DNA of 64,000 bases from an uncultured Myxococcales bacterium (GCA_964554495.1 CAZKOY010000006.1:4796-68795); one strand, 5' to 3'; counted from the first letter of the stretch, positions 4,496 to 32,845 are shown. Program-made: numbers and translations. Notes: a model not told the origin generated them from the letters alone.

Positions 4496-5647
4496 ATGTC
4501 GACGGCAGGCTGGTCGGCGGGCCAGCGGTCGCTCGTATGGCGCCTGCTTGGGGTGACGCTCGGGCTCTTGCTGCTGAATGGCCTTTTGCTTCTGCCGGCC
4601 GGAAGTTCGACGGGAAAAACGGCGGCGGTGGCCAGCCATGATCGACTGCGTGTCGGCTTGGTGTTCGATGTTGGTGGGCGCGGCGACAAGTCGTTCAACG
4701 ACGCGGCGTATCGCGGTGTCGAGCGAGCGCAGCGCGAGCTAGACATCGAGGCCGAGTTCATCGAGCCCGGCGAAGGCACCGATCGCGAGTCGGGCCTGCG
4801 CTTGCTTGCTGCGCGCGGCTTCGATCTGATCATCGGGGTCGGCTTCGTGTTTTCCGACGACATGCTGATGGTGGCCAAGGACTACCCACTGCGGCGCTTC
4901 GCCAATGTCGATTACGCCAAGTTCGACGAGCACGGCTTTGTGATGCCGCCCAAGAACATGGTGGCGCTGAAGTTTCGGGAAGAAGAAGGCAGCTATCTGG
5001 TGGGGGCCATCGCCGGCCTGTCCACGAAAAGCCACGTGGTTGGCTTCGTCGGTGGCATGGACATTCCGCTGATCCACAAGTTTGAAAACGGCTATCGCCT
5101 GGGCGTGCTTTCCGTCTGCCCAGACTGCCGCGTGTTGGTTGGTTATGCCGGGACCAGCGGGGATGCGTTCAAGAACCCCACGCGCGGCAAAGAGCTAGCG
5201 ATGGCGCAGTATGCGGCCAACGCCGAGGTGATCTTTCACGCGGCTGGCTCGACGGGCCTGGGGGTCTTTGAAGCAGCGCGCGAGCACAAGCAGAAGGCGA
5301 TAGGTGTCGACTGCGATCAGTGGGATGAGGCGCCGGGTGTGATCCTGACGTCGATGATCAAACGTGTCGACGTAAGCGTCTTTGAAGTGATCGCCGATCT
5401 GAAGCGGGGTCGCTTTGAAAGCGGCGTGCGCGTGTTCGGCTTGGCCGAAGGCGGCGTCGACTATGTCTATGCCGAACCCGAGCGCGGCATGATCGCCCCT
5501 GCAGTGCGGGCTCGTGTCGAGTCGCTGCGTCAGCAGATCGTGGCGGGCGCCATCCAAGTCGACGGCGAGCGCGCACCGGCCTCACCAATCAAGGCCGAGC
5601 CACGTGGCACACCGCCGGGCGAAGCAAGAAAAGGGGGTGCGCTCTGA
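4496..5647 (+). CDS. BMP-family (PnrA/Med-like) ABC transporter substrate-binding lipoprotein
   Basis: 'RVGLVFDVGGRGDKSFNDAAYRGVERAQRELDIEAEFIEPGEG' and 'VGFVGGMDIPLIHKFENGY' are typical of the basic-membrane-protein family. There is an N-terminal hydrophobic signal. Start placed at the internal Met (ORF index 37). Confidence 0.8.
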   Translation: MSTAGWSAGQRSLVWRLLGVTLGLLLLNGLLLLPAGSSTGKTAAVASHDRLRVGLVFDVGGRGDKSFNDAAYRGVERAQRELDIEAEFIEPGEGTDRESGLRLLAARGFDLIIGVGFVFSDDMLMVAKDYPLRRFANVDYAKFDEHGFVMPPKNMVALKFREEEGSYLVGAIAGLSTKSHVVGFVGGMDIPLIHKFENGYRLGVLSVCPDCRVLVGYAGTSGDAFKNPTRGKELAMAQYAANAEVIFHAAGSTGLGVFEAAREHKQKAIGVDCDQWDEAPGVILTSMIKRVDVSVFEVIADLKRGRFESGVRVFGLAEGGVDYVYAEPERGMIAPAVRARVESLRQQIVAGAIQVDGERAPASPIKAEPRGTPPGEARKGGAL

Positions 5648-5670
5648 GTGCCGCAACGCAAGGTTCGCCG

Positions 5671-7383
5671 TTGATAAGCGGCACATCGGATGTCGCCGAG
5701 CATGTTCGTCCGCCGCTTTTTGCGTCGTCATCGGCGGCCCTGTGTGAGCTTCGCAGAGCCTCGGTTCGCTATGGCGCTCATCTGGCCAACCAGGATGTCT
5801 CGATCGCGGTGCGGCCGGGCGAAGTCGTAGCGCTGCTTGGGGAAAACGGGGCGGGAAAATCGACGACGCTGCACGCGCTGTATGGCCTGGTACCGCTGTC
5901 CGCTGGTGATGTCTGCTATGGCGGAAGTGCGGTGCCAGCTTCGCCCGAGCGCGCCATTTCTGGCGGCGTGGGCCTGGTCAGCCAGCACTTCTTGCTGGTG
6001 CCCACCCTGACGGTGGCCGAGAACATTGTCCTTGGGCGCGAGCCGCGAAGGCGGGGCGTTTTTTTCGATCGCCGACGCGCCGAGGCCGAAGTGCATGCGC
6101 TCGCCGAGAGCTATGGCCTGCACGTGCAGCCCGAGCGGATCGTGGGCTCGCTAAGCGTTGGGGAAGCGCAGCGGGTCGAGATCCTAAAGGCGCTGTATCG
6201 CGGGGCCCGCTGCCTGCTTTTGGATGAACCCACGGCGGTGCTGACCCCGAAGGAAGCGATCACCATGCTGCGGGCGCTGCGGGCGCGCTTCGTCGGTGAG
6301 CGCCGTGAACGCGGTCTGCTTATCGTGACGCACAAGCTCGATGAGGTGCTGGAAGTAGCCGACCGGGCGGTCGTGCTGCGCGCTGGGCGCGTCGTGGCTG
6401 AGGTGGAACGGGCGAACTTTTCGGCCCGCGAGCTAGCGCACGCCTTGGTGGGCCGCGAGCTGGTGCCAATTACGCGACAAGGAACCGCCAGCCTGCACGG
6501 CTCGTCGGTCGCGGCCTCGACGGCGTCGAGCCTGTCGCTGCGCAATGTGCAGGTGGTGCGGGACGGGGTCGAGCGAGTTCGGGGCATCAGCCTGGACCTG
6601 CAGCCGGGCACCATCGTCGGCATCGCTGGCGTCGAGGGCAATGGACAGACCGAGCTGTGCTTGGCGCTGGCAGGGCTTCTGCCCTTTTCTGCGGGACAGG
6701 TTGCCCTGCATGGCCGCGACATCACACAGGCTCGGGTTGCTGAGCGTCGCCAGGCGGGCATGTCATGGGTGCTGGAGGATCGCCAGCGGCATGGCTTGGT
6801 GCTGGACTTCACGCTGGCCGAAAACCTGCTTTTGGGACGCCAAACGCTCTATCGAAAAGAGCGCGTGGCGGGCCATTCCGCGGGAGGCTTGGTGAGGCGG
6901 CTTGCCGGCTGGCTCATCGATCGGCAGCGCTTGGCACAGGACGCAGCCGCACTGCTGACACAACACGACGTGCGACCGATGGAACACACGGCCTTGGCGC
7001 GGTCGCTTTCCGGTGGCAATCAGCAGAAGCTGCTGCTGGCCCGCGCGCTGGCCGATGCCGAGCAAGCGCAGCGACAGGTTCTCGTGGTGGCACAGCCAAC
7101 GCGTGGGGTCGACATCGGCGCCGTGCAGTCGCTTCATCAGATGCTGCTTGCGGCTCGCGATCGCGGGGCTGCGATCTTGCTGGTGTCCTCCGAGCTCGAC
7201 GAGCTACGCGCGCTGTGTGATCGCATTGCCGTGTTGTATCGCGGCCGGGTGATTGCTGAGCTGAACAATCCTGCGAGCGCGCCCGTCGAGCGAGAGCGTT
7301 TAGGCGAGCTCTTGGCGGGTCTGGGGGCAGAGCCCGTGTCGGCACGAATCATCGACGAAGCCCCGCACGGCCAAGCGCGCTGA
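5671..7383 (+). CDS. ABC transporter ATP-binding protein with two fused ATPase domains (sugar/nucleoside-uptake type)
   Basis: First Walker A 'LGENGAGKSTTL' and second P-loop region 'GIAGVEGNGQTEL'. Signature 'LSGGNQQKLLLARAL'. Walker B 'LLLDEPT' and 'ILLVSSELDE'. The start is TTG per the ORF track, immediately after the BMP gene. Confidence 0.85.
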   Translation: MISGTSDVAEHVRPPLFASSSAALCELRRASVRYGAHLANQDVSIAVRPGEVVALLGENGAGKSTTLHALYGLVPLSAGDVCYGGSAVPASPERAISGGVGLVSQHFLLVPTLTVAENIVLGREPRRRGVFFDRRRAEAEVHALAESYGLHVQPERIVGSLSVGEAQRVEILKALYRGARCLLLDEPTAVLTPKEAITMLRALRARFVGERRERGLLIVTHKLDEVLEVADRAVVLRAGRVVAEVERANFSARELAHALVGRELVPITRQGTASLHGSSVAASTASSLSLRNVQVVRDGVERVRGISLDLQPGTIVGIAGVEGNGQTELCLALAGLLPFSAGQVALHGRDITQARVAERRQAGMSWVLEDRQRHGLVLDFTLAENLLLGRQTLYRKERVAGHSAGGLVRRLAGWLIDRQRLAQDAAALLTQHDVRPMEHTALARSLSGGNQQKLLLARALADAEQAQRQVLVVAQPTRGVDIGAVQSLHQMLLAARDRGAAILLVSSELDELRALCDRIAVLYRGRVIAELNNPASAPVERERLGELLAGLGAEPVSARIIDEAPHGQAR

Positions 7384-7471
7384 AGAAGAGCGGCTGGCGG
7401 AGCTGCGTATCGCGGACCCTGCCGATGGAGCCCTTGGTTCGCGGACCGGTCAGAGTTGAGAGGCGCTGCGC

Positions 7472-8263
7472 TTGCGCGTACAACCTATCCTTATGCCGAG
7501 ATCGATGTTCTGTTCGAGTGACTCGCGGGATGAAGCGGGCCTAGTGTTGCAGAGACGCGGGCTTTTTGGCGGTGCAGTCGCGCGCTGGCTGGGGCTGCTG
7601 CTTGTGTGGGGAGCGCTGCTGAGCTGCAAGCGCCCGCCGCCCGAGCCGCTGGTCAAGCCGGGTATGTATCAAAGCAGCCCCGAGGAGCTTTCGCGTCTGT
7701 GGCATGACATCTTGGCTGCTTGCAAAGCCGACGATCGCAACCGTGTACACGAGCTCATGCGATCGTTCGTCATGACCCAGCCCGAGCTTACGAGCTTGCT
7801 CGGGCCGATGCAGGGACAGGCTCTGTGGGCGCGCTATCAGGCGATGCTGGGATCGCTGGTCAACGCCGGAGCTGTCGAGCTCGTCGCGCATGTCTACGAG
7901 AAAAAGTACGACGACATCTCGGTCACGCGCATCGATCAACTGCCACTTGTCGAACAGGCGGACACCGATCGCGCGGTGCTGGCGGCGCTCGTCAACAAGC
8001 CACCGATCTACACGGTGCGTGTGAAGCGCAAGACCGAGGCCAAGGGCCTGCGCTATGACTTCTTCGTGTATCTCGACGGGTATTGGCGCAGCGGCAACCT
8101 GCTTGGCAAGTTCTTGCCGCCCGCTCCGGCTCCGGCTTCCTCAGCCGCATCGGCGCCGGCTGAGGGGGCTGGTGATGCGGGTGCGCCTCCTTCTGCAGCG
8201 CCTACGCTCCCACCGGCTGCATCGGCGGATCTGGGGACGCAAAAGACCGCCTCCGAGAAGTGA
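7472..8263 (+). CDS. Hypothetical lipoprotein with an Ala/Pro-rich C-terminal tail
   Basis: Signal plus lipobox 'WLGLLLVWGALLSCK'. No recognisable catalytic motif. C-terminus is 'PPAPAPASSAASAPAEGAGDAGAPPSAAPTLPPAA'. Confidence 0.45.
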   Translation: MRVQPILMPRSMFCSSDSRDEAGLVLQRRGLFGGAVARWLGLLLVWGALLSCKRPPPEPLVKPGMYQSSPEELSRLWHDILAACKADDRNRVHELMRSFVMTQPELTSLLGPMQGQALWARYQAMLGSLVNAGAVELVAHVYEKKYDDISVTRIDQLPLVEQADTDRAVLAALVNKPPIYTVRVKRKTEAKGLRYDFFVYLDGYWRSGNLLGKFLPPAPAPASSAASAPAEGAGDAGAPPSAAPTLPPAASADLGTQKTASEK

Positions 8264-8356
8264 AGCTCTCAGCTTGGCGACGGGGCAGGCGCGGTTCTTG
8301 AGAGGTCAGAGCCCCGTTGTGCAAGGCCCTATGGTGCGGTTTCTGGACCACCAAAT

Positions 8357-8723: not shown

Positions 8724-9443
8724 ATGCCTGCGCCGCCCACCGATTATGAGCTGTACCTGCGTGTGCCTGAGCTGCTGAGCCTGCAAAAAAAGCCTGAGCA
8801 GCTCGCGTGTCCCGACGAGCTTTTGTTTCAAGTCGTGCATCAAAGCGCCGAGCTGTGGATGAAGCTCATTGACCATGAGCTTGGCCGCGCTGCGACGCTG
8901 CTCGACCGAGATGACCTGGGGGAAGTCGCGGTGCTCCTGCGACGCGTCCATGCGGTTCAGAACCTGCTTCTGGACGGCATGGAGACGCTGTACACGCTGA
9001 GCTCTGCCGACTATATGCGCATCCGCGCCGTGCTGGGGCGTGGCTCGGGCCAGGAGTCGCCTGGCTTTCGTCGCATGCTGGCCGCGCCGGGCGAGCTTTG
9101 GCCGCACTTCGAGTCGCTGCTTGAGCGCCAGCGCCTGACGCTGACCGAGATCTATCGCGAGCCGCGTCGCTTTCCGTCGGTGTACGCCGCTGCCGAGGGG
9201 CTCATCGAGCTGGATCTGCGTCTGCAAGAGTGGCGCAACCGCCACATCCTGCTTGTGTACCGGACGATTGGCGTCGGCACTCCCTCGCTAAAAGGCAAGC
9301 ACTCAGAGCTTCTAGAGCGCGGCCTGCGGACGCAGTTTTTCCCGGCGCTTTGGCAGGTGCGCGACGAGCTGTTCGCCGAGTGGACGGCAGAACACCCAAA
9401 CGGCGCAGAGTACACGCTGGTCAGCCCGAACAGCACACGCTAG
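8724..9443 (+). CDS. kynA: Tryptophan 2,3-dioxygenase
   Basis: N-terminus 'DYELYLRVPELLSLQKKPEQLACPDELLFQVVHQSAELWMKL' matches the conserved TDO start (Y-x-x-YL-x-L-x-x-LL-x-x-Q). Length 239 aa. Confidence 0.85.
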   Translation: MPAPPTDYELYLRVPELLSLQKKPEQLACPDELLFQVVHQSAELWMKLIDHELGRAATLLDRDDLGEVAVLLRRVHAVQNLLLDGMETLYTLSSADYMRIRAVLGRGSGQESPGFRRMLAAPGELWPHFESLLERQRLTLTEIYREPRRFPSVYAAAEGLIELDLRLQEWRNRHILLVYRTIGVGTPSLKGKHSELLERGLRTQFFPALWQVRDELFAEWTAEHPNGAEYTLVSPNSTR

Positions 9444-9466
9444 GCGTCGCAGAGCGCGGAGCGTCG

Positions 9467-9850
9467 ATGAAGTTCCCCGAAGATGCGCCAGTCACTCCCG
9501 AGAAGCGTGCAGCCCTGCGCCATCGGCTAGAGGCGCTGCGCATCGACCTGTCGGCGATCGACGAGCAGGCGGTCAAGGGCAGTGGTCCCGGTGGACAGAA
9601 GATGAACAAGACGGCAAGCGGCGTGCTCTTGCGGTACCTGCTGGGAGATGAGCAGCTCGTCGTCAAGTGGCAGCGAGAACGCCAGCATTCGCTGAACCGC
9701 TTCCTGGCTCTGCGCGAGCTGTGTGATGAAGTTGAGGTACGAGTTTCTCCGCAGACAAGCAGACGCCTGCATGCAGAGGCTCGGCGACGAAAGCAGAAAG
9801 ATCGCTCGCGCCGACGAAGCGAGAAAAAGCACGCGAGTTCCTCGGACTAG
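9467..9850 (+). CDS. arfB: Peptidyl-tRNA hydrolase ArfB (class-I release-factor-like ribosome rescue factor)
   Basis: 'GSGPGGQKMNKTASGVLLRY' carries the catalytic GGQ motif in its expected context. There is a basic C-terminal tail (RRRKQKDRSRRRSEKK). Internal Met at ORF index 79. Confidence 0.7.
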   Translation: MKFPEDAPVTPEKRAALRHRLEALRIDLSAIDEQAVKGSGPGGQKMNKTASGVLLRYLLGDEQLVVKWQRERQHSLNRFLALRELCDEVEVRVSPQTSRRLHAEARRRKQKDRSRRRSEKKHASSSD

Positions 9851-9976
9851 CGCCGCTTGGTCGCAGGCTGCTCACGCTGGATTCGTTGTCGCCGCTGACT
9901 CGGGAGGAAACCCGGCAGTTTATGCGCCGATAATATTCGTTAATCGAATTACAATTGCCTCGGAGGCAGTCGGCTC

Positions 9977-12900
9977 ATGTTCGAGACAGCCAGTGCGCAG
10001 CCCATCGGCTTGTTTCAGTCACCCGCGCTCACCGCTCTTGAGCGCCTACTTGCCCGTCTCAGCCTGCGGGCTGGGGACTTGGAGAGTAGGTTTCTCAGTC
10101 GGCAGCAGAGCTTCCTTGATCGCGTGTTTTCGCGCCACTTCGAGGTGATTGGCCTGCCGACGGAACGGTCGGCTTTTTCGTCGCGGGATGTCGAGCCCGT
10201 GTCGCTAAACCTGCCTCAGAGCTGGGTGCCGGCGCCGCGGTCACTGCGTGTGGCCCAGTCGCCCGCTGCGAAGCGAGCCGAGGCTTCGCCTGCAGCGACA
10301 GGTGCTGCGGCTCGACGGACGATCGGGGCTGTGCCGCCTGCAGAGCGGCCTGGCATTCTGCCGGTCGTGGCACCAGAGCCGGCGTTGGCCGTCGGCAGCG
10401 CTGCTCGACAGCCGGATGCTGCGGGTCTCGTCAGGGGCACGCCGAATACAACGGCAGCCTCGACCACACAGTCGATTCTGCCCGCGGCAGCGCGGCGAGA
10501 GCCCGATGCCAGCGTGTCGGCAGAGGCGGTAGCTCCGCTGGCTGCGGTAGCTCCGCTGGCTGCCGAGCGGGCTGCAGAAGTGGCGGCGCCAGAGGTGAGG
10601 CGCGACGCGCCGGCCGAGCCTGGTGCTGATCTGGCTCTGCCGAGCCCGGTTGTTCTGCCTCGCCTGCAGCAGATGATTCCGTTGACGGAAAGCCAGTCCA
10701 TCGGGCTGCCTTCGCAGTCGGACGCGAGCGAGCGCAGCGCAGGCGCAAGCGCAAGCGCACAAGTGGCCGATCCAGCCGCTTCCAGCGTCGAGCCTTCGAC
10801 GGAGCTGCGCGTGCGCGATCTGCTGAACGCCACTGGCAGAGGAACCGTGGCCTCGGCCTCGGTCACCGCGGCGAACCAACCTTCTGCACGGTCTGCGTCA
10901 GTTCGCGATGTCGGAGCCGCTGACGCGACACTTCCAGCCACGGTGGCGCGACAGCCAGCGATGGCCTCGCCGGCATCGAGTTCGGGCGCCTCTGCAGCGC
11001 CACCGACGAGCCTAGGCAAAGCACGCTCATTTTTGCACCTGGGCTGGGCGGACTCTCAGCTCAGTCGCTCGCCGTGGTGGCGGGCCGCGGCGCTACCCAA
11101 TCGCGTCGATCAGGGCGGCAGTGCTGCTGCCTCGTCGATGGTTCCTGCCATGCCGGTCGTTCAAACCCCGGACTTGGCTCCTGTGGCTCGGCGGGCTGCG
11201 GCGGCTGGTGCAGCGGGCTCTGCGAGTCTGCAGCGCCCGACGACACCGCTCGCCAAAGAACGCCCGACTGCGCCATCCCACGTGCCCACGCCATCGGCGG
11301 CGAGCGTTCCTGTCGCGCCGGAAGAGGCAACCCGCAGTTCGTCCGATGCCGCGGTGCCGCCCGTCACTATGTCGTCTGCTGCCGTCGCAGAAACGGCGAC
11401 GCGTACACAAGCGGCTCAGGCTTTGCGACCCCAGGCCCAGGATGCGTTGGCGCGGACCGTACGTTCCGTCGAGCCGCCGACTGAAGCGCCGACTGAAGCG
11501 CCAGAGTTCGAGGCGTCGGCCTCTCATTCGAGCGCCGCGAGCCCGGTGTTGGCTGCCGTGACTGCCTCGCCAACGACCGCCGATGCGGCACCTGCGCTCG
11601 CTGACTTCTCGGCACATGCTGCGGAGTCACGTCGCGCATTCACGCTGCCACAGCCACGGGCGCCGCGCGCTGGGTCGCACGCTGGCATGGGCGAGGCCGT
11701 GCGTCTCGACCCTGGCCTGCTTCCCTCGCACGCGTCTCCAGAGCTCGTCCAGCTCCTCTCTGGGAATCGCGCTCCTCAGGTCACCAGGGCCGCTACGGGT
11801 GTCCCGATGGGTGTCTCGTGGGGGCAGCCCGGCGGACTCTGGACGCAGCCCGCGTGGTCTTCTGCAGGCATCCTGACGCGCTTGGCGCAGCGATCCATCG
11901 TCTCGCAGATGGACCGTTGGCAATCGGCGCCGGGGGTGCCCACGCCGATCGCCCGCTCACTTGCCAGCGCTGAAGCTGGACGGACTTTGCAGCACCCTGC
12001 GTCGCGTGAGCTACCGTGGGTTGCTCCGTCTGTCGTGGCGCGCAATGCCCAGCCGATCGTGAATGGGGCAGATTCGTCTCGGCCGGGGCGAGAGTCTCCG
12101 TCGCTGGAGCGTTCGAATCTGCCGGCAGGGCGAGGTGTGCAGCTCACGCCAACCCATTCTTTCGTCGCTGGTGCCGAGCTGGGCCGCGACGCCGTAGCGC
12201 TGCCCTACGCACAGCCGTGGCGCGAGCCGGGCGGTCTGGGGGCATTAGCCGAGCTGTTTGCGGCGGGGATTGGCATCGGCAGTGGTGCCGCAGCCACGTT
12301 GGCTCAGCACGATGCGGGCGTCCCTGCGCCCTCGCTGCTTGCCGACTGGATTCGTCCGAACTTGACCCGTGCCGCTCCACTTCCTGCGGCAGTCGCGTTC
12401 GGGGTGGATGCTCTATCGCGGGTGTCGACGGCAGCGCTGCCTTGGTTGTCCGCACCGCGGCCTGATTCGCCGACACCACAGCCACGCAGCCTGCAGACCC
12501 TGGCGCCGCGTCCTGCACGCGAGCAGTCAGAATCAGCGACGGGCCGTCCCGCTGCAGTCACTGCCACGCCGCCAATGCTGTCGGCGGCGGCGCGGGCAGT
12601 TGGGGACGTGCCAGATCAGTTCCAAGAACACAGCGTCGTTTCGCTGCTGTCGGGTCAGACCGAGATCGCGACGCCTGCCTCGGGCTATCGCGCGTCCCCG
12701 GCTTTGCCTGCCCTGCAGCTTGGCGGCATCGGCCTTTTGGCGCAGCGCTTCGCCGGAGAGCAGGGCCTGCGCGCGGTCAGCCGTGGCCTACCGCTTCATT
12801 CCGACCCTCAGACATGGGCGGCGGCTCCGGGGCTGCCGACAGCGCTTTCGCAAAACCTGCGGCAGATCGCGGGGCCGGCTGCGTCGGTGATTGGGCGAGC

Positions 12901-15097
12901 CACGACTCAGATGCCGTATCTGGACGTGCTGCCGCAGCGCCGCGCGTCAGGCTCTGGAGTCTCGCTGGCTCCGTCGGGTCTTTCACCGCGCGAGGCCGCG
13001 AGCGTACCTGCTTCAACGCGTGCCGATCGGGCTGCGGCTGTGCCTCCGCTTGTTCCTCAGGCACCGACGGCAGCTCAGGTCGAGACTGCGCACGGCCAGG
13101 CGGCTGCAGTGCCATGGTTTTCACCAGGAGGGGGCGGCACACTGGCCGAGCTCTTTGCCGCCGGCATTGGCATGACCAGCGGTGCGACGGCCTGGCTCGG
13201 GCAACTGGCGACGGGCTCGTCGAGCGGAGTGGTTCCGCCGTGGGTCAGCGCGCTTCTGTCAGGCGTTCCGGCGCCGCAAGCCGCAAGTGATGTGCAGCCT
13301 TCCGTCGCTGGGTCACCGCAGCGTCGCCCGGTATGGTCTGCGTCGCTGCCATGGATCCAGCCGCCGCGGGCCGATGTCGCTTCGGCTCCTGGTTCGATGC
13401 GTTTAGCGACGGAATTACGCACAAATTCATATCCCATGGTCACAGCGTCGCTGCCGAGCGCAGGTCGCACGTCGGTACGTGCTGAGCAGTTTGCTTCGCA
13501 GCAAGGCCTGATCGCCGCTACTGGCGACGCGGGGCGCTACCAGCCTGTCGCGGGCGGCTTGGTCTTTTTGCCATCGCCAGAGGCTGGCCGCGCCGCCAGC
13601 GAGTCTATCGCCAAACCGCAGGCCACCGCGATCCCGACGGCCACTGCGTCGCGAGTGGGCTCGCCGCTGGCTCTTGCCACGGGCCTTGGTGGCTTGGGTC
13701 TGCGCAGCGAGCTGTTTGCCAGGGCCGAGCAAGCTCGCATGTTGGGCGCGGGTGAGCTCATCAGCCAGAGCTTGGGAGGGGCCGAGAACTTCAATCCAGC
13801 GACGGACGAGGGCATGGTTCCCACGGCCGGCGCGGGCAGCTTGCGGGGTGCTGGTGGACTCGTCTATCTGCCACGGACGGCGAACGAGGCGACCACGTCT
13901 GCCACGCAGTCGCCACGGCTTCCGACGGCGGTACCGCCTGCTGCAGCGAAGCCGGCGGCGCGCCGAGTACACGTCTCGCCGCTCAACTTGGCTCAGCCAT
14001 GGCCGACGCTGCCGCGAGAGCTTGGGCGACTGGGGCTGCCATCGCTGGCACTGCCCAAGGCCCAGCCCTCTTTGAGCGCTGTCGCTACGCCGACGGTGAT
14101 GCGCTCGCCTCTGCCTATGGTCTCTGCGACGGCTGCCGCAGCTCCGCGGCTTCCGGCGGGAGGCCTGTCGGTCCTGGGTGGTTCGTCTTTGAAGGCTGCG
14201 CCAGAGGCGGAGCCGCGCCGGGCGACCGTGGCTCCGCGTCAGCCGTATGAGCTGGCGGCTCGCTTTGCGTCATCGATGCTGACGGCGTTTCCGCAGCCGG
14301 ATCGGCCCGCAGCAGCGTCCACAGTCAGCGAGGGGGCCAAGCCAGCGATGCTTTGGCCGCAGACTGCGTCGGCCACGGGTGAGAGGGTACAGCGACTGCT
14401 GGCGATGCTTCCTGCGGTTGTTCCGTCGATGGCTCCTTTGGCTGCCCTCAGTGAGCTAGTCAAGACCAGCGCGGCGGGCAGTGGCGTGGGGATGCCTCTG
14501 TGGCAGCGCCTGCCGTCTTCCCCTGCGCTGTCGCTTTTCGCTGGCACCAAAGCGGTAGAGCGCTCGTCCGACGACAGCCATGACGACGCAGAAGACGATG
14601 ACGAGACGAGTCGACCTTCGCTGACCCTGGTGTCCGGTGATCAGCCTGGAAATGCTCGCTCGCGCCGCGCCGCGCCGACGCCGAGTGTCTCGACGGCGAA
14701 GCCGGCCGCTCCGCCTCCTGTGGAAGTGTTCAAGGCGGCGCTCTCAGCAAGTGGCATCAGTCGCGAACAGGTCGAGGCCTCGGCAAAGCTCATGCAGGCC
14801 ATGGGCGGGGCCAGCGGTGGATCGAGCGGACGCAGCGACGATCGACTTTCGCTGGATGACTTGACCCTGGTGGCGATCTCGATGGGGCAGGGGCGCATGG
14901 CTGCGTCACAGAACGCCGCGCTGACTTCGATTCCCAGCGTCGAGTCGGCGCTTCGCCTGCCATCCGTGCAGCATCCGACGGTGAGCCAAGACGACAAGGA
15001 CGTGCGCAAGAAGATCGACACGATGGCGGATTCCGTCATCAAGATGATCAAGCAGATGAAAGACAACCAAGCGATTCGCGGCGGCTTCGATATGTAG
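9977..15097 (+). CDS. Giant (1706 aa) Ala/Pro/Ser-rich low-complexity protein of unknown function
   Basis: Uninterrupted 5.1-kb ORF with codon usage like the neighbouring genes. The N-terminal roughly 80 aa and C-terminal roughly 150 aa are of normal composition (ending '...DDKDVRKKIDTMADSVIKMIKQMKDNQAIRGGFDM'). Internal motif 'GG[LT]GALAELFAAGIG[IM]xSGA' is repeated with synonymous nucleotide divergence. No signal peptide and no catalytic motif recognised. Confidence 0.55.
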   Translation: MFETASAQPIGLFQSPALTALERLLARLSLRAGDLESRFLSRQQSFLDRVFSRHFEVIGLPTERSAFSSRDVEPVSLNLPQSWVPAPRSLRVAQSPAAKRAEASPAATGAAARRTIGAVPPAERPGILPVVAPEPALAVGSAARQPDAAGLVRGTPNTTAASTTQSILPAAARREPDASVSAEAVAPLAAVAPLAAERAAEVAAPEVRRDAPAEPGADLALPSPVVLPRLQQMIPLTESQSIGLPSQSDASERSAGASASAQVADPAASSVEPSTELRVRDLLNATGRGTVASASVTAANQPSARSASVRDVGAADATLPATVARQPAMASPASSSGASAAPPTSLGKARSFLHLGWADSQLSRSPWWRAAALPNRVDQGGSAAASSMVPAMPVVQTPDLAPVARRAAAAGAAGSASLQRPTTPLAKERPTAPSHVPTPSAASVPVAPEEATRSSSDAAVPPVTMSSAAVAETATRTQAAQALRPQAQDALARTVRSVEPPTEAPTEAPEFEASASHSSAASPVLAAVTASPTTADAAPALADFSAHAAESRRAFTLPQPRAPRAGSHAGMGEAVRLDPGLLPSHASPELVQLLSGNRAPQVTRAATGVPMGVSWGQPGGLWTQPAWSSAGILTRLAQRSIVSQMDRWQSAPGVPTPIARSLASAEAGRTLQHPASRELPWVAPSVVARNAQPIVNGADSSRPGRESPSLERSNLPAGRGVQLTPTHSFVAGAELGRDAVALPYAQPWREPGGLGALAELFAAGIGIGSGAAATLAQHDAGVPAPSLLADWIRPNLTRAAPLPAAVAFGVDALSRVSTAALPWLSAPRPDSPTPQPRSLQTLAPRPAREQSESATGRPAAVTATPPMLSAAARAVGDVPDQFQEHSVVSLLSGQTEIATPASGYRASPALPALQLGGIGLLAQRFAGEQGLRAVSRGLPLHSDPQTWAAAPGLPTALSQNLRQIAGPAASVIGRATTQMPYLDVLPQRRASGSGVSLAPSGLSPREAASVPASTRADRAAAVPPLVPQAPTAAQVETAHGQAAAVPWFSPGGGGTLAELFAAGIGMTSGATAWLGQLATGSSSGVVPPWVSALLSGVPAPQAASDVQPSVAGSPQRRPVWSASLPWIQPPRADVASAPGSMRLATELRTNSYPMVTASLPSAGRTSVRAEQFASQQGLIAATGDAGRYQPVAGGLVFLPSPEAGRAASESIAKPQATAIPTATASRVGSPLALATGLGGLGLRSELFARAEQARMLGAGELISQSLGGAENFNPATDEGMVPTAGAGSLRGAGGLVYLPRTANEATTSATQSPRLPTAVPPAAAKPAARRVHVSPLNLAQPWPTLPRELGRLGLPSLALPKAQPSLSAVATPTVMRSPLPMVSATAAAAPRLPAGGLSVLGGSSLKAAPEAEPRRATVAPRQPYELAARFASSMLTAFPQPDRPAAASTVSEGAKPAMLWPQTASATGERVQRLLAMLPAVVPSMAPLAALSELVKTSAAGSGVGMPLWQRLPSSPALSLFAGTKAVERSSDDSHDDAEDDDETSRPSLTLVSGDQPGNARSRRAAPTPSVSTAKPAAPPPVEVFKAALSASGISREQVEASAKLMQAMGGASGGSSGRSDDRLSLDDLTLVAISMGQGRMAASQNAALTSIPSVESALRLPSVQHPTVSQDDKDVRKKIDTMADSVIKMIKQMKDNQAIRGGFDM
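10526..10561 (+). repeat. Perfect 18-bp tandem duplication (gcggtagctccgctggct x2) inside the giant ORF, in frame (AVAPLA x2)
   Basis: Seen directly in the sequence. A second perfect 12-bp duplication (ccgactgaagcg x2, 'PTEAPTEA') lies at about 11477-11500. Confidence 0.8.
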
Positions 15098-15144
15098 CTC
15101 TGTCTGCAGTCTGTGCCTCGAAGCGTCCTCGGTCTTATCGCTTT

Positions 15145-17142
15145 TTGCTGCCCCACTTCCTGCCGCGACTTCATGCCACAATGCGACGCATGCATGGTCC
15201 AAACGAGGCTCACGCACGAGCCGTTTCTTGTCGACGAGCCGGGCATCTCGGCATAGCTCTCGCCACGGCGGCAGTTTGTGGGGGGCTGGCTGCTGAGCCA
15301 ATGGCGCTGGCTCAGCTTGTGGCGCCGTCACCGGCTAGCGTTCTGCGAGTCCACGCCCGCAGCCTGGACGCCACGCTGCAGATCTTGCGCACCTATCTGC
15401 CCATTCCGCTGAAGCCCGAGGCGGCGCTGGATAGCTTGCTAGGTGTGTTGGGGTCGCAGGTCGTGCTGTCCGCCCCCGCTGACCTGGTGGTCGCTCTGGA
15501 CCAGAAGTCCGTCGACAATCCTGCGCCCCCGCAGTGGGTCATTGCCTGCACGCTGCGCAGTCTGGACGAGGCGCGCAAGGTGGCAGCCAGCGCCAATCTA
15601 TCGATGGAAAATCAAGGCAAGTGGACTCGTCTGCAGCTGTATGCAGGGGGCGACACTTGGCGCTGCTTGCTGGGTCCAGACGGGGGCGGCGCGGCCCGCT
15701 TGGCCTGTGGCCAAAGCGAGCGCAGTCGCGACGAGCTTGCGCCCTATGCGGTGACCCTGGCTCCGCTGCGCATCAAGAGCGATCTGCGTGCTGAGCTTTC
15801 CGTCGAGACGCTGGTGCGGACGTATGAAGGGCTGCTCCAGCGCGGGCTGCAGATGGCTTCGATCTTGGCGCCGCAGAAGCTGCAGCTTGGCAATCCGATG
15901 TTTGATCGCGGCCTGACCGACTTGACGCAGACGCTGGTCGGCCAAGTGGGACACATGGCAGCGGATCTGCGGCAGCTTGCCCTGGATATCAGTCTGACCA
16001 ACACCGGGGCCGAGGCGATGCTGGCGTATCAGCTAGGCAGCGAGACCTCGTGGTGGGGGCAGGCGGACGCGCTGGCTGCGCAGCAGTCGACCACGGAGAC
16101 TCCGTCGATCTTCTGGGCCCTGCCCAAGGACGCGGGCTCTGCGTCGTTTGCGGTCAGCGAGCTTCGCTATGGACAGCAGTTGCTGAAGCTGCTGCAGCCT
16201 CTGATCGACGGTTTTTTGACCCATGACGGGCTGGCCGCGGCGGATCGGCAAGCGCTATCCGATCTGCTGCATGGTGTTCCGATGGCGAGCGGGCGCCTGA
16301 CGACAGCAGTTGCCGAAGTCGCTGTTGCTGGGGCTGATACACAGCCTCGCGGTGAGCGGGTCGACTGGCAGCAGCTCTTGGCGGGCAGCGTGTACTTGCT
16401 GACCAGTGATGGCGCGGACCGTCTCGCGGTGTCGTGGCTGCAAAGCGTCGTCGCGGCGTACAAGCGACCGGGCGTGCAAGCGTACATGCGCGCGAAGTGG
16501 AAACTGCTCGGCATCCGTGAGCCGCTGCCCGTCTTGCGCGTTCAACCAGCCGGCAAGCCGCTTGGACCGGGAGCACAGTGGTTCTCGCTGAGCCTGTCTT
16601 TGCCTGCTGGTCTGGACAAGGGGGCGCTCGGTCGAGGGCAAGTTGCCTCCGCGTCGCCCAAGCCCGCGCCAAAAGCGACGCCGATCGTGCTGCATCTGCT
16701 GACCGCCGAGCAAGGTGGCCGAACCTGGATGGCGGCTGGCAGTGATCCCAGGCTGCTTGCCACGCGGCTCAGTGAACAGCTGAGCATTGCGAGCGAGCGC
16801 TCGCTGATGCCGCGACCGGATCTCGAAGCGCTGCGGCAACCGGGGCTGCGCAGTGGTGGCTTCACGACGCTGCGCAGCCTGGCGCGTTACCTCGAAGGGG
16901 CGATGAGCCTTTCGCGTCGACGGAGCACGCGCTCAGCGGATGGAAACGTTGCCGCCTCGGACATCGCGTCCATCTTCAACCGGCTGCCGCACCACGGCGA
17001 AACCACCGTGGTCCATTTCTCGCGTGTGCGGCGCACGATCGTTGCTGGCGACGGCGGGCCGCTGATCGGCGAGTGGACCGTACGCATTCCGCGAACCGCC
17101 CTCGAAGACCTCGTGGCTTTGGCTATGCACCTGGCGATGTAG
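15145..17142 (+). CDS. Hypothetical secreted protein (665 aa), probably co-transcribed with the giant ORF
   Basis: It starts 48 bp after the giant ORF on the same strand. An N-terminal hydrophobic segment 'GIALATAAVCGGLAAEPMALAQLVAPSPA' suggests export. No known motif recognised. Confidence 0.5.
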   Translation: MLPHFLPRLHATMRRMHGPNEAHARAVSCRRAGHLGIALATAAVCGGLAAEPMALAQLVAPSPASVLRVHARSLDATLQILRTYLPIPLKPEAALDSLLGVLGSQVVLSAPADLVVALDQKSVDNPAPPQWVIACTLRSLDEARKVAASANLSMENQGKWTRLQLYAGGDTWRCLLGPDGGGAARLACGQSERSRDELAPYAVTLAPLRIKSDLRAELSVETLVRTYEGLLQRGLQMASILAPQKLQLGNPMFDRGLTDLTQTLVGQVGHMAADLRQLALDISLTNTGAEAMLAYQLGSETSWWGQADALAAQQSTTETPSIFWALPKDAGSASFAVSELRYGQQLLKLLQPLIDGFLTHDGLAAADRQALSDLLHGVPMASGRLTTAVAEVAVAGADTQPRGERVDWQQLLAGSVYLLTSDGADRLAVSWLQSVVAAYKRPGVQAYMRAKWKLLGIREPLPVLRVQPAGKPLGPGAQWFSLSLSLPAGLDKGALGRGQVASASPKPAPKATPIVLHLLTAEQGGRTWMAAGSDPRLLATRLSEQLSIASERSLMPRPDLEALRQPGLRSGGFTTLRSLARYLEGAMSLSRRRSTRSADGNVAASDIASIFNRLPHHGETTVVHFSRVRRTIVAGDGGPLIGEWTVRIPRTALEDLVALAMHLAM

Positions 17143-19362: not shown

Positions 19363-21387
19363 ATGAGTCCCGCAGAATCGCCCCAAATCTCGCACGGCCG
19401 CCCTGGGCCTGCTTATGCAAGCGGCCGCGCAGGGCAAGCCGCCCACGATCGTCCTCCACCTGAGCTGTTGGCCATGGCCGGCGGCCCCGGTGGCGGCGGA
19501 GCACCGGGCTACGGTGCAGGCTCGGGGGCGGCAGGTGGGGCGTCGGGCGCTCCCCCATTAGGGAAGTTCGGCACCCTGCGCGTGATGAGCGGCAACGATC
19601 AGGGCAAGGTGATCGAGCTCAACCGACCGACGACGAGCGTCGGTCGCGGTGCGGATCAGATGCTGGTCATCGCGGATATCGCCGTATCGCGACGGCACCT
19701 GCAGATCCAAATGACACCGACGGGATATCGCATGCAGGACATGGGCTCGCCAAACGGCACCATGGTCAACGGCAAGCGAGTCGCCGAAGTGCAGCTCATG
19801 GATGGCGACCAGATCGAGCTGGGGAACTCCTTGCTGCGCTTCGAGCACCCTCCGTCGAGGCCGCAGCCAGAAGCACCGCCCCCGGTGGCGCCTGCCTACG
19901 CGCCTCCGATGCAGCAACCCATGCAGCAGCCTATGGGTTACCCACCGCCGGGGTATCCACCGCAGGCGGCGCCCGGCTATCCGATGCAGCAGATGGCTCC
20001 GCAGCCCATGATGCCGGCTGGCTATCCGCCGGGGCCGGCTTCCGTGGTGCAGCCCTTGGCGATGGCGCCGCCCGTGCAGGCGCAGTCGATGCCTCAGCCG
20101 TCGCTGTTTATGGAGCCCAGTGCTATCGCGATGTCGACGGCGGGGCCGCTGGCCTTTCTGCAGAACCAGCAGAAGCAGAAAATGTACTTTGGCGCGCTCG
20201 GCGGTGCGCTGCTCGTTGGGCTTATTGGCCTCGGAGTGACATCACTGCGCAGCGGCAATCCTGCCAAGGCCATCGACAAAGCCACTGAGCTGTACATCGC
20301 GGGCACCAAGGACTTCACAGCCAGCCACTACGACACGGCGCGCAAAGCATTCGAGGAAGCCCAGAAGTTGGCGCCGGACTCGGCCGAGCTCAAGCACTAC
20401 ATCGAAGCCTGTGATGCCGAGGAAAAGACCCACAAGCTGATCGAGGCGGCAAAGAAGGATCTAGAAGACCGCAAGTATGCAGAGGCGATCCGCGTCTTCG
20501 CGAGGGTTGAGAAAAACTCGGTGCAGTATGAAGACGCGCAGCAGCAAGTGCGCAGCGCGCGTCGCGAAGCGGTCAAAGAGATCCTCGGTCAAGCGAACAA
20601 CTTGGCCCGCAATGACACCGCGGCGGCACTCGAGAAGGTCAACAAGGGGCTCGAAGACATCGATCCAGACAACAGCGAGCTACAGGAGCTCAAGAGCAAG
20701 CTGAGCAGTGCTCCGACAAAGGCGGCGCCGCCTCCTGAAGATCCGCCTGTGGCTAAGGATGAGCCAAAGGACGAGAAGCCCGAAAAGCCCGCCAAGCCAG
20801 AGCCCAAGCAGACCAAGGCCGCCAGCAAGCCCGAGAAAACGGAGAAGCCTGAGCCGTCGGCGGGGGGGGACTTGGCGAGCAACAAGCAAGCCCTCGCTGC
20901 GTACAAGAGCAAGGACTTTGCGAGCGCTATCAGCGCGATGAAGTCGGCCAAGGGCTCCAAGGCGGCACAGACGGTCAAGGACCTAGAAGAGGTCAAGGCC
21001 AAGAACGACCAGGGTAGCAAGGCAGAAGGGAGCAACCCGAGCGCCGCTGCGACGGCATACAAAGTCGCCGCCGACGCGGACAAGCGCCTTGGCGGGGCCT
21101 TGGCCAGTTACTTCAGCGGCAAGATCAGTGCGATGTCGAGCAAGGGCGGAGGCAGCACCAGCAAAGCTCCGCCTGTGGCCGGCGGCGATCCAGGCAAGGA
21201 CGCCGAAGCCGACAAGCTGCTCGGCCAAGCGAAGGGCCTGGTCAGCAAGAACCCGGCTCAAGCACGCACGCTGTGCCGTAAGGTCATGCAGCTCTACAAC
21301 AACAGCCCGAAGAACCCCAAGGTGCAGGAAGCCTACCGTCTGTTGAACAGCATCAAGGGTGGCAAAGACGACGACGACGACTTCTAG
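19363..21387 (+). CDS. FHA-domain protein with Pro/Gln-rich linker, one transmembrane helix and a Lys/Ala/Glu-rich C-terminal region
   Basis: FHA core 'TSVGRGADQMLVIADIAVSRRHLQIQMTPTGYRMQDMGSPNGTMVNGKRV'. TM helix 'MYFGALGGALLVGLIGLGVTSL'. The tail ends in DDDDDF. Confidence 0.75.
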   Translation: MSPAESPQISHGRPGPAYASGRAGQAAHDRPPPELLAMAGGPGGGGAPGYGAGSGAAGGASGAPPLGKFGTLRVMSGNDQGKVIELNRPTTSVGRGADQMLVIADIAVSRRHLQIQMTPTGYRMQDMGSPNGTMVNGKRVAEVQLMDGDQIELGNSLLRFEHPPSRPQPEAPPPVAPAYAPPMQQPMQQPMGYPPPGYPPQAAPGYPMQQMAPQPMMPAGYPPGPASVVQPLAMAPPVQAQSMPQPSLFMEPSAIAMSTAGPLAFLQNQQKQKMYFGALGGALLVGLIGLGVTSLRSGNPAKAIDKATELYIAGTKDFTASHYDTARKAFEEAQKLAPDSAELKHYIEACDAEEKTHKLIEAAKKDLEDRKYAEAIRVFARVEKNSVQYEDAQQQVRSARREAVKEILGQANNLARNDTAAALEKVNKGLEDIDPDNSELQELKSKLSSAPTKAAPPPEDPPVAKDEPKDEKPEKPAKPEPKQTKAASKPEKTEKPEPSAGGDLASNKQALAAYKSKDFASAISAMKSAKGSKAAQTVKDLEEVKAKNDQGSKAEGSNPSAAATAYKVAADADKRLGGALASYFSGKISAMSSKGGGSTSKAPPVAGGDPGKDAEADKLLGQAKGLVSKNPAQARTLCRKVMQLYNNSPKNPKVQEAYRLLNSIKGGKDDDDDF

Positions 21388-31823: not shown

Positions 31824-32845
<1,022 letters not shown>

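What the first reader, a model, noticed from the sequence alone, without database searches (positions are those of the whole stretch)
9977..17142. Giant 1706-aa Ala/Pro/Ser-rich, apparently disordered protein plus a secreted 665-aa partner, with no recognisable family
A 5.1-kb uninterrupted ORF encodes a protein that is largely low-complexity (A/P/S/V/R-rich). Its N-terminal roughly 80 aa (MFETASAQPIGLFQSPALTALERLLARLSLRAGDLESRFLSRQQSFLDRVF...) and C-terminal roughly 150 aa (acidic DDSHDDAEDDDE stretch, then ...KKIDTMADSVIKMIKQMKDNQAIRGGFDM) look globular and non-repetitive. It has no signal peptide. A 665-aa protein with an export-like N-terminus follows 48 bp downstream on the same strand. 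I recognise no catalytic, transport or structural-repeat family in either protein. The pair sits between kynA-arfB and a threonine dehydratase, so context gives no functional hint. It is a candidate novel intracellular scaffold or condensate-type protein, or a very divergent cell-envelope system.
Basis: partly seen in the sequence, partly recalled or inferred. Interest (0 to 1): 0.7.

Follow-up and report, generated by a model that had tools for sequence, protein, structure and literature searches.

The report
Giant orphan tape-measure-like disordered protein
A real, conserved 1,706-residue, mostly disordered protein of uncultured myxobacteria has ends homologous to those of a 370-residue protein at the "tape measure" position of a phage-tail-like injection machine, yet it is encoded far from any such machine, usually next to an exported protein of a large uncharacterised family.

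Summary
Both ORFs exist as described (9977-15097; 15145/15181-17142) and both are real genes. Full-length orthologues run from 99% down to about 28% identity. dN/dS is 0.38 for the giant (0.07-0.09 at its C-terminus) and 0.15 for the partner. Pfam, NCBIfam, PHROGs, PADLOC and PDB sequence searches find nothing.

The giant is not featureless. About 15 conserved islands sit in fast-evolving Ala/Pro/Ser linkers. They include a tandemly duplicated ~300-aa super-repeat carrying a W-x3-GG-x3-LAExFA-x-G-x-G motif.

The main new result concerns its ends. The C-terminal ~200 aa (hhalign 98.4%, E 1e-14) and, more weakly, the N-terminal ~46 aa match the ends of a 370-aa protein. That protein lies between the tail-tube gene and the tube-initiator and VgrG/Pvc8 genes of a contractile-injection-system operon, which is the tape-measure position. 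No such genes lie in the 64-kb window or in any other giant-bearing locus.

The partner is an exported alpha/beta protein with a confident model and no solved homologue. Its family has at least 655 clusters, many of them lipoproteins, and its distant members lack the giant. The partner follows the giant in 11 of 12 loci.

Best reading: a hugely expanded, orphan tape-measure-family protein. Its function is inferred, not shown.

The parts
9962..9966 (+). GGAGG ribosome-binding site 10 nt upstream of the giant's ATG, preceded by an AT-rich stretch (9930-9960)
   Evidence: read directly from the sequence
9977..15097 (+). Giant gene: 1706 aa, Ala/Ser/Pro-rich, mostly disordered, no Cys, net charge +18
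   Evidence: Orthologues at 99-28% identity. dN/dS 0.38, with substitutions 171:145:303 at codon positions 1:2:3.
9977..10231 (+). N-terminal conserved module (aa 1-85; M.ET.S..F.SP...ER...R...R..SF.DR.FSR). Residues 9-54 resemble the N-terminus of the CIS tape-measure-position protein of L020.
   Evidence: 17 invariant columns. hhalign prob 87%, E 4e-6. dN/dS 0.31.
10802..11176 (+). Three short conserved islands inside the linker: aa 276-283 (ELRVRDLL), aa 349-369 (ARSFLHLGWADSQLSRSPWWR), aa 392-400 (MPVVQTPDL)
   Evidence: invariant R278 V279 R280 D281, H354 L355 W357 D359 L362, P393 L400
11810..12046 (+). Degenerate pre-repeat module (aa 612-690): SWGQPGGLW..PAW, RWQSAPGV, LPWVAP
   Evidence: invariant P618 G619 W648 A651 P652 G653 P684. 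Weak match to the super-repeat: hhalign prob 76%, E 2e-5.
12203..13096 (+). Super-repeat copy 1 (aa ~743-1040). A-motif PWREPGGLGALAELFAAGIGIGSGAAATLAQ (aa 746-779); C-motif GGIGLLAQRFAGEQG (914-928), followed by W.AAPG and MPYL.
   Evidence: motif HMM E 1e-19. Aligns to copy 2 with hhalign prob 99.5%, E 1.1e-22 over 240 columns.
13097..13966 (+). Super-repeat copy 2 (aa ~1041-1330). A-motif PWFSPGGGGTLAELFAAGIGMTSGATAWLGQ (1046-1078); B-motif SVRAEQFASQQG + GRYQPVAGGLVFLP (1163-1200); C-motif GGLGLRSELFARAEQ (1238-1252) + GAGGLVYLP.
14234..15094 (+). Conserved C-terminal region (aa 1420-1706). aa 1479-1703 is homologous to the C-terminal 200 aa of the CIS tape-measure-position protein. Shared elements: PLWQRLP, an acidic run, LTLVSGD, DDRLSLDDLTLVAISMG..RMAA, VESAL, HP, and a terminal amphipathic helix ending in RGGFD.
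   Evidence: hhalign prob 98.4%, E 1e-14. tblastn 1.8e-7 to the window and down to 6e-13 to other giants. dN/dS 0.07-0.09.
15181..17142 (+). Partner gene, 653 aa from ATG 15181 (the mechanical ORF starts at TTG 15145). Exported alpha/beta protein of a large uncharacterised family.
   Evidence: Family of 655 representatives. AF2 model pLDDT 88, pTM 0.86. dN/dS 0.15.
15181..15312 (+). Export signal of the partner (aa 1-44, ...LATAAVCGGLAAEPMALA|Q). The A-x-A site is shared by close homologues. The 'CGG' aligns with the lipobox Cys of distant family members.
   Evidence: The cleavage site is inferred, not predicted by a dedicated tool.
15664..15708 (+). The two Cys residues (C162, C176 in 15181 numbering) that are the only invariant columns across 69 diverse family members. 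Probably a disulfide, which fits an extracytoplasmic location.
   Evidence: The disulfide is inferred.

Best explanation
The 1706-aa ORF encodes a hugely expanded, 'orphan' member of a family whose short form (370 aa) occupies the tape-measure position of a phage-tail-like contractile injection system (CIS).

Shown:
- It is a real gene under purifying selection.
- Both of its ends are homologous to the two ends of the CIS-encoded protein.
- About 1,300 aa of fast-evolving Ala/Pro/Ser linker lie between those ends. The linker carries about 15 conserved short islands, including a tandemly duplicated ~300-aa super-repeat with the motif W-x3-GG-x3-(L)AExFA-x-G-x-G.

Inferred:
- The protein works as an extended thread, like a tape measure.
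- The strongly constrained C-terminal module docks on a tube-initiator/spike hub, and the N-terminal module marks the distal end.
- The conserved Trp/Gly/Phe islands contact a partner surface, either the tube lumen or, after ejection, a membrane. The two A-motifs are Gly/Ala-rich hydrophobic segments.
- It would then act as the ruler of an unusually long tail, or as a lumen-loaded ejected protein, of a CIS encoded elsewhere in the genome. At the published 0.216-0.229 nm per residue, 1706 aa corresponds to about 370-390 nm.

The downstream 653-aa gene encodes an exported alpha/beta protein from a large family that usually occurs alone. It is probably co-expressed with the giant, but a functional tie is not demonstrated.
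For: Real gene:
- Nine homologues down to 28% identity keep the full-length frame.
- dN/dS is 0.38 overall, 0.55-0.72 in linkers and 0.07-0.09 at the C-terminus. Third-position substitutions are in excess.

Anatomy:
- Conserved islands cover only 253 of 1706 residues.
- The motif HMM finds 5-8 copies per protein.
- The internal duplication aligns at hhalign 99.5%, E 1e-22.

Link to a CIS:
- A metagenome scan with the C-terminal profile found the L020 ORF 7215-8327.
- C-terminal homology: hhalign 98.4%, E 1e-14 over 192 columns. This includes a 13-residue identical string, DDRISLGDLTLIA, shared with giant homologue P0007.
- tblastn from the L020 protein hits every giant at 2e-7 to 6e-13.
- N-terminal similarity: prob 87%, E 4e-6.
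- The L020 gene order is sheath, gp19 tube x2, DUF6760/GpE-like, sheath, gp19 tube (E 2e-32), [370 aa], CIS_tube (E 1e-29), Phage_GPD. The same order is seen in L021.
- NCBI names the neighbouring gene 'contractile injection system protein, VgrG/Pvc8 family'.

Literature:
- In other CIS lineages, the gene immediately upstream of the tube initiator and spike is the tape-measure-related one, and it can be over 2000 aa and about 70% disordered (Tme, PMC11126660).
- Lineage II eCIS lack Afp14 homologues and carry unannotated subtype-specific genes (PMC6899500).
- eCIS clusters occur and are expressed in Myxococcota MAGs (PMC11937823).
- The length-per-residue coefficient comes from bioRxiv 10.64898/2026.05.27.728243.
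Against: - No sheath, tube, hub or other CIS gene lies in the 64-kb window or in any of the 12 giant-bearing loci (tblastn; Pfam). Tape-measure genes are normally inside the tail module.
- The CIS link rests on one protein cluster (L020/L021, a 58-member 90% cluster). No further CIS-linked relatives were found in viral contigs, phage genomes or plasmids.
- The L020 protein is called a tape measure only from its position. It matches no curated tape-measure family.
- The repeat motif of the giant is absent from the L020 protein.
- With 10.9% Pro, the giant's centre is unlikely to be the alpha-helical rod seen in characterised tape measures.
- Giant length varies from 1521 to 2023 aa among orthologues.
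- Whether the host genomes contain any CIS could not be checked.
Confidence: 0.45

Rival explanations
1. Exapted cytoplasmic scaffold. The protein descends from a tape-measure-like ancestor but no longer works with any tail. It is an intrinsically disordered, multivalent scaffold. Its conserved islands (Trp/Gly/Phe motifs, duplicated super-repeat) bind cellular clients or self-associate, as in condensate or organiser proteins. This is.
For: - It is encoded among housekeeping genes with no CIS genes within 64 kb.
- The architecture is short conserved motifs in rapidly evolving linkers, as in multivalent scaffolds.
- The repeat motifs are absent from the short CIS-encoded relative, so they are a lineage-specific gain.
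- There is no signal peptide or membrane segment.
Against: - Both tape-measure-like ends are retained. The C-terminal one is the most strongly constrained part of the protein (dN/dS 0.07-0.09), which suggests the ancestral docking function persists.
- No client or partner domain is identifiable.
- The only conserved neighbour is exported, so it is not in the same compartment.
Confidence: 0.3
2. Effector-immunity-like pair. The giant is loaded into a CIS through its tape-measure-like ends and ejected into neighbouring cells, where its Gly/Ala-rich hydrophobic A-motifs disturb the envelope. The exported downstream protein protects the producer's periplasm or acts as its receptor or chaperone.
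For: - The arrangement is effector-then-exported-protein on the same strand, 84-242 nt apart, in 11 of 12 loci despite different flanks.
- Tape-measure-related CIS effectors exist (Tme, PMC11126660).
- The partner family is much wider than the giant family, as orphan immunity genes often are.
Against: - No toxin domain is present in the giant.
- The partner is large (about 650 aa) and its family is conserved full-length in unrelated contexts without the giant, which looks like an envelope housekeeping role.
- One giant lineage lacks the partner downstream.
Confidence: 0.1
3. Envelope-spanning linker system (TonB/TolA/FtsN-like). The giant would be a long Pro/Ala-rich tether acting with the periplasmic partner.
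For: Pro/Ala-rich composition and an exported neighbour.
Against: - No N-terminal membrane anchor or any membrane-spanning candidate.
- No signal peptide.
- No TonB_C, SPOR, LysM or OmpA-type domain.
- Its ends are homologous to a cytoplasmically assembled tail component.
Confidence: 0.04
4. Not a gene: a chance long ORF in GC-rich DNA, or a mis-framed region.
For: GC3 is not elevated relative to GC1/GC2 across the central region.
Against: - The frame is kept in all orthologues down to 28% identity, with indels in multiples of three.
- Third-position substitutions are in excess and dN/dS is below 1 throughout.
- A good RBS is present.
- The chance of 1706 stop-free codons is about e^-41.
Confidence: 0.01

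Closest known systems
Tape measure proteins of contractile injection systems and myophage tails (Afp14/Pvc14/Alg14; P2 gpT; T4 gp29)
   Same: - Homologous at both ends to a protein encoded between the tail tube and the tube-initiator/VgrG genes of a CIS operon.
- Long and thread-like, with conserved termini and a variable, internally repeated centre.
- The C-terminal end is the most constrained part, as expected for the hub-binding end (role of the C-terminus from bioRxiv 10.64898/2026.05.27.728243).
   Different: - Encoded outside any tail module.
- No match to curated tape-measure families.
- 4.6 times longer than its CIS-encoded relative.
- The centre is Pro/Ala/Ser-rich and probably disordered rather than helical.
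- Carries lineage-specific W-GG-AExFA repeats.
Tme, the tape-measure-related CIS effector of Streptomyces davawensis (PMC11126660)
   Same: - Very large (over 2000 aa) and about 70% predicted disordered.
- Has hydrophobic segments.
- Related to tape-measure proteins.
- Proposed to be ejected.
   Different: - Tme lies inside the CIS cluster immediately upstream of the baseplate genes.
- Tme carries a DUF4157 domain and a C-terminal endonuclease domain.
- The giant has no enzymatic domain and is not in a cluster.
Repeat-bearing disordered scaffolds such as carboxysomal CsoS2 (from general knowledge; functional analogy only)
   Same: A large, mostly disordered protein with short conserved repeated motifs separated by variable linkers.
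   Different: - No sequence relationship.
- No compartment-shell or cargo genes nearby.
- The ends point to a phage-tail ancestry.
TP0453 of Treponema pallidum (PDB 3k8g/3k8j), with START/PsbP-Mog1-like periplasmic alpha/beta modules. This comparison is for the partner protein.
   Same: - Both are exported, often lipidated, alpha/beta proteins.
   Different: - The scores are weak (6% identity, TM 0.19/0.40, E 0.016).
- The partner is 2.5 times larger and multi-module.

Membership tests
Tail/CIS tape measure protein | Gene lies inside the tail module, between the tube/chaperone genes and the tube-initiator/hub genes | tested here: not met
   No sheath, tube, CIS_tube or GPD homologue in the 64-kb window or in 12 giant loci (tblastn; Pfam). 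The feature is met by the short relative in L020/L021.
Tail/CIS tape measure protein | Sequence homology to a protein occupying the tape-measure position | tested here: met
   C-terminus: hhalign prob 98.4%, E 1e-14. N-terminus: prob 87%, E 4e-6. tblastn 2e-7 to 6e-13.
Tail/CIS tape measure protein | Match to curated tape-measure families (Pfam/PHROGs/NCBIfam) | tested here: not met
   0 families at E<=1 in Pfam, NCBIfam and PHROGs. No tblastn match in 50,697 phage records.
Tail/CIS tape measure protein | Predominantly alpha-helical/coiled-coil central region | tested here: inconclusive
   The composition (10.9% Pro, 19% Ala, 11% Ser) argues against a continuous helix.
Tail/CIS tape measure protein | Resides in the tube lumen, and its length sets the tail length | not testable with these tools
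   Needs particle purification, mass spectrometry or cryo-EM, and length mutants.
TonB/TolA/FtsN-type periplasmic linker | N-terminal membrane anchor plus a C-terminal TonB_C/SPOR/TolA domain | tested here: not met
   No membrane-spanning candidate. No such Pfam domain.
CIS/T6SS effector-immunity pair | Recognisable toxin domain in the effector, and a small cognate immunity gene that co-occurs strictly with it | tested here: not met
   No toxin domain. The partner is about 650 aa, and its family mostly occurs without the giant.
Exported (lipo)protein family of the partner (unnamed) | Sec or lipoprotein signal, about 640-690 aa, two invariant Cys, conserved alpha/beta core | tested here: met
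   655 representatives at E<=1e-3, 176 at E<=1e-30. Only C162 and C176 are invariant across 69 members. 35 of 69 carry a canonical lipobox, and close relatives carry an A-x-A site. Model pLDDT 88.
TP0453-like / START-like lipid-binding fold (partner) | Significant structural superposition on the solved fold | tested here: inconclusive
   [not shown]

The most novel reading that the evidence does not exclude
A phage-tail tape-measure protein has been domesticated. It has been detached from any tail gene cluster and inflated about five-fold by linker growth and by duplication of a new W-GG-AExFA module. It now serves as a giant disordered cellular scaffold, or as an exceptionally long (~0.4 um) ruler or ejected thread, working with a re-targeted member of a widespread myxobacterial envelope-protein family. 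This would be a CIS-derived two-gene system with no described counterpart.
Probability: 0.25. Interest if true: 0.8.

Novelty: new variant of a known kind. Interest (0 to 1): 0.58.

Why it matters
Tape-measure proteins are the least conserved and least understood parts of phage-tail-like injection machines. In whole eCIS lineages they are unannotated (PMC6899500).

This finding does three things:
- It defines end-modules (DDR[LI]SLxDLTL[IV]A..., PLWxRLP, SFxDR[VI]) that recognise one such unannotated tape-measure-position family.
- It shows that the same ends flank a 1,500-2,000-aa disordered protein encoded on its own in a clade of uncultured Myxococcota.
- It brings to light a family of at least 655 clusters of exported myxobacterial proteins that has a confident model but no solved homologue and no annotation.

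If the giant still serves a tail, it predicts tails several times longer than known eCIS, or a new class of thread-like cargo. That bears on engineering particle length and payload. If it does not serve a tail, it is an example of a viral structural protein turned into a cellular disordered scaffold.

Tried and rejected
- Curated libraries. Pfam, NCBIfam, PHROGs and PADLOC on both proteins gave nothing. Pfam and NCBIfam on 69 partner-family members gave nothing meaningful.
- PDB sequence profiles for the partner, the giant's C-terminus, the C-terminus plus L020, and the N-terminus gave only chance hits.
- Fold search of the first, poor partner model (pLDDT 60) was superseded by the second model. 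AFDB fold libraries were not available.
- The third homologous-protein search, with the 69-sequence alignment, returned only the same 10 close proteins.
- The search for related loci with the broad alignment A3 failed because no stretch was conserved enough. With A2 it reached only six close loci.
- Viral-contig scans with the C-terminal profile and with the L020 tube protein found nothing. tblastn against phage and plasmid collections found nothing.
A cluster member was accepted, but its contig begins inside the operon.
- The idea that the A-motifs are transmembrane helices was rejected: KD mean 1.15-1.46 and Hessa sums of about +5 kcal/mol.
- A terminator between the two genes was looked for. 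No convincing one was found, and no sigma-70-like promoter either.
- The upstream AAA gene seen in L001 (314 aa) was considered as an Afp15-like ATPase. It was dropped because it is absent from the L005/L006 loci and too short.

Full report
OBSERVATION

Their translations match the quoted termini.

The giant is 19.3% Ala, 11.3% Ser, 10.9% Pro and 7.3% Arg. It has no Cys and a net charge of +18. A GGAGG lies 10 nt upstream of its ATG, after an AT-rich stretch. It has no signal peptide and no plausible membrane-spanning segment.

Pfam, NCBIfam, PHROGs and PADLOC return nothing for either protein. The flanking genes are Trp dioxygenase and an RF-1-domain gene upstream, and a PALP enzyme downstream.

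Alignment with homologues places the partner's start at ATG 15181 or 15190 rather than the TTG. The gap between the genes is therefore 84-93 nt.

IS THE GIANT A GENE?

GC3 does not settle it. GC1/2/3 is 0.72/0.63/0.69, against about 0.70/0.50/0.74 for the neighbours. The high GC2 simply reflects Ala, Pro, Ser, Arg and Gly codons. Conservation does settle it:

- Nine homologues from 99% to about 28% identity keep a full-length frame of 1521-2013 aa. A tenth, in L012, is 2023 aa.
- Against the 83%-identical orthologue, substitutions fall 171:145:303 on codon positions 1:2:3.
- dN/dS is 0.38 overall. It is 0.55-0.72 in the linkers, 0.31 at the N-terminus and 0.07-0.09 over the last ~215 codons.
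- The partner has dN/dS 0.15.

ANATOMY OF THE GIANT

Only 253 of 1706 residues lie in islands conserved across the family. The rest is fast-evolving, indel-rich Ala/Pro/Ser linker. The islands are:

- An N-terminal module (aa 1-85).
- Three short motifs at aa 276-283, 349-369 and 392-400.
- A degenerate module at aa 612-690.
- Two copies of a ~300-aa super-repeat (aa ~743-1040 and ~1041-1330). The copies align to each other with hhalign probability 99.5%, E 1e-22.
- A conserved C-terminal region (aa ~1420-1706).

The super-repeat carries three variants of one motif, W-x3-GG-x3-(L)AExFA-x-G-x-G:
- A: PW..GG..LAELFAAGIGxxSGA
- B: AEQFA..QG followed by G.W.PV.GGLVFLP
- C: GGLGLRSELFA followed by W.(A/S)APG or GAGGL.YL

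A motif HMM finds 5-8 copies per protein. In the most distant clade the order is (A,B,C)x2. Nearly all invariant Trp, Gly and Phe residues sit in these islands. The A-motifs are hydrophobic and Gly/Ala-rich but do not score as transmembrane helices.

THE LINK TO A CONTRACTILE INJECTION SYSTEM

A metagenome scan with the C-terminal profile returned two more giants (L018, L019) and one short relative, L020 ORF 7215-8327 (370 aa).

Its last ~200 residues align to the giant's C-terminal region with hhalign probability 98.4%, E 1e-14 (97.8%, E 8e-13 against the whole-protein profile). The shared elements come in the same order:
- PLW(Q/N)RLP
- an acidic run
- (L/M)TL..GD
- DDR(L/I)SL(D/G)DLTL(V/I)A
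- a conserved E, then HP
- a terminal amphipathic helix ending in R.G

The string DDRISLGDLTLIA is identical in L020 and in giant homologue P0007. tblastn from the L020 protein hits every giant at 2e-7 to 6e-13. Its N-terminus (ERMLSSVLGR...RALSFADRV) resembles giant residues 9-54 (probability 87%, E 4e-6).

The L020 gene sits in a tightly packed operon:
- sheath (635-1858)
- two gp19-type tube paralogues
- a 140-aa ORF
- a DUF6760/GpE-like ORF
- sheath (4975-6753)
- gp19 tube (6766-7210, E 2e-32)
- the 370-aa gene (7215-8327)
- CIS_tube PF19266 (8311-8772, E 1e-29)
- Phage_GPD (8776-9966)

The order tube, 370 aa, CIS_tube, GPD recurs on a 72.8-kb contig (L021). The protein is NCBI HPH26368.1 / MBP6741269.1 ('hypothetical', from Deltaproteobacteria/Pseudomonadota MAGs). 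NCBI names the GPD gene 'contractile injection system protein, VgrG/Pvc8 family'.

The slot between the tube and the tube-initiator/hub is where phage P2 encodes its tape measure, in the gene order FI-FII-E-T-U-D (general knowledge). The tape-measure-related Tme of Streptomyces davawensis also lies there (PMC11126660). eCIS lineage II lacks recognisable Afp14 homologues and has unannotated subtype-specific genes (PMC6899500).

Calling the L020 protein a tape measure is therefore a positional inference, not a demonstrated function.

WHAT IS MISSING

- No CIS gene lies in the 64-kb window or in any other giant-bearing locus (tblastn with the L020 proteins; Pfam).
- The window is ordinary myxobacterial chromosome. 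It carries Ser/Thr kinases, FHA, FG-GAP, a sulfatase, PGM, OmpA/YfiO-like genes, a xanthine-dehydrogenase-type enzyme and HMG-CoA synthase.
- The giant's repeat motif is absent from the L020 protein.
- No further relatives were found in viral contigs, phage genomes or plasmids.
eCIS clusters do occur and are expressed in Myxococcota MAGs (PMC11937823).

THE PARTNER

- It is much better conserved than the giant: 41% identity where the giant has about 28%.
- The exhaustive profile search shows a large family: 655 representatives at E<=1e-3 and 176 at E<=1e-30, nearly all 640-690 aa. None has a Pfam or NCBIfam assignment.
- Of 69 sampled members, 35 carry a canonical lipobox, typically L-x-x-C-G-G followed by a Pro/Ala linker. 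The close relatives of the window protein instead have an A-x-A|Q signal-peptidase site.
- Only two Cys residues are invariant family-wide. This fits an extracytoplasmic disulfide (inferred).
- With the 69-sequence alignment, AlphaFold2 gives a confident multi-module alpha/beta model (pLDDT 88.1, pTM 0.86).
- It is best described as a periplasmic, possibly ligand- or lipid-binding, envelope protein of unknown function.

IS IT A PAIR?

- In 11 distinct giant-bearing loci the partner follows on the same strand after 84-242 nt. These are the window, L001, L003, L004, L005, L006, L009, L010, L011, L012 and L018.
- This holds in L005, L006 and L012, whose flanks on both sides differ from the window's.
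- In L019 the giant is followed by a convergent GH63-type gene, and no partner lies within the 3 kb to the contig end.
- Distant partner-family members are not preceded by a giant (P0100, P0035, P0024, P0040).
- The giant is therefore a lineage-restricted addition next to one branch of an older, independent family. Co-expression is likely. A functional tie is possible but unproven.

MECHANISM

My preferred reading (confidence about 0.45) is that the giant is an expanded, orphan tape-measure-family protein. It would be an extended thread whose strongly constrained C-terminal module docks on a tube-initiator/spike hub and whose N-terminal module marks the far end. The conserved islands would contact the tube lumen or, after ejection, a membrane.

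With the published eCIS coefficient of 0.216-0.229 nm per residue (bioRxiv 10.64898/2026.05.27.728243):
- 370 aa predicts about 80-85 nm.
- 1706 aa predicts about 370-390 nm.

The homology is shown. Docking, lumen residence and ruler or cargo function are inferred.

Rivals:
- An exapted cytoplasmic disordered scaffold (0.3).
- An effector/immunity-like pair (0.1).
- An envelope linker (0.04).
- A non-gene (0.01).

COMPARISON AND NOVELTY

The giant is not a member of any curated tape-measure family, and it fails the positional criterion. It does meet the homology criterion, through the L020 protein. It resembles Tme in size and disorder but lacks enzymatic domains and cluster membership.

I rate it a new variant of a known kind. 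The uncertainty comes from the single CIS-linked relative and from not knowing whether the hosts carry a CIS.

The partner family is a separate, sizeable piece of unannotated myxobacterial envelope biology.

Noticed in passing
L020 1-9966 and L021 1-4489: The CIS module holding the 370-aa protein has two sheath genes and three gp19-type tube paralogues. It ends at VgrG/GPD, followed directly by convergent lepB-lepA. No gp25/gp6-type wedge, cap or AAA+ genes are adjacent, and a minus-strand ORF precedes the first sheath gene. The baseplate genes must lie elsewhere, or this is an unusually split or minimal cluster.
   Followed up: partly
partner family (alignment A3; for example P0029-P0167): Distant members are classical lipoproteins (L-x-x-C-G-G, then a Pro/Ala linker and a DLSPVAEPA motif). 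The roughly 20 closest clusters, including the window protein, have lost the lipobox and use an A-x-A signal-peptidase site. In the window protein a 'CGG' remnant aligns with the old lipobox Cys.
   Followed up: partly
L015 2065-9906: One distant partner-family member sits beside a PP2C phosphatase, a D12-class DNA methyltransferase, a 745-aa double-AAA/WHD protein and a divergent SNF2/ResIII helicase. This looks like a defence or mobile island, and it is unrelated to the window's context.
   Followed up: no
window 19363-21387 (+): A 674-aa FHA-domain protein (Yop-YscD_cpl/FHA in the orthologue). It has a Pro/Gln/Met-rich tract, one hydrophobic segment (LGGALLVGLIGLGVTSL) and a long Lys/Glu/Ala-rich C-terminal half ending in DDDDDF. 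This accounts for the strong A-over-T skew (0.28-0.46) and the GC dip at 20100-21000. The gene is conserved downstream of the pair in L001, L003, L004, L010 and L011.
   Followed up: partly
window 28325-29764, 29996-30958(-), 31820-33777, 39388-40446, 51562-54419, 60161-61960(-), 7472-8263: Several sizeable ORFs (263-682 aa) have no Pfam family at E<=1e-4. They were not examined further.
   Followed up: no
window 817-4140 (-) and 25958-28294 (+): A 1106-aa FG-GAP/beta-propeller repeat protein, and a 778-aa sulfatase carrying an N-terminal MopE-type Cu-binding motif.
   Followed up: no
L019 4002-8831: The giant of the P0006/L019 lineage has a poly-Gln run (QQQQQQQQQQ) in place of the basic stretch before the C-terminal module. 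It is the only giant not followed by the partner; a GH63/MGH1-like glycosidase gene converges on it.
   Followed up: partly
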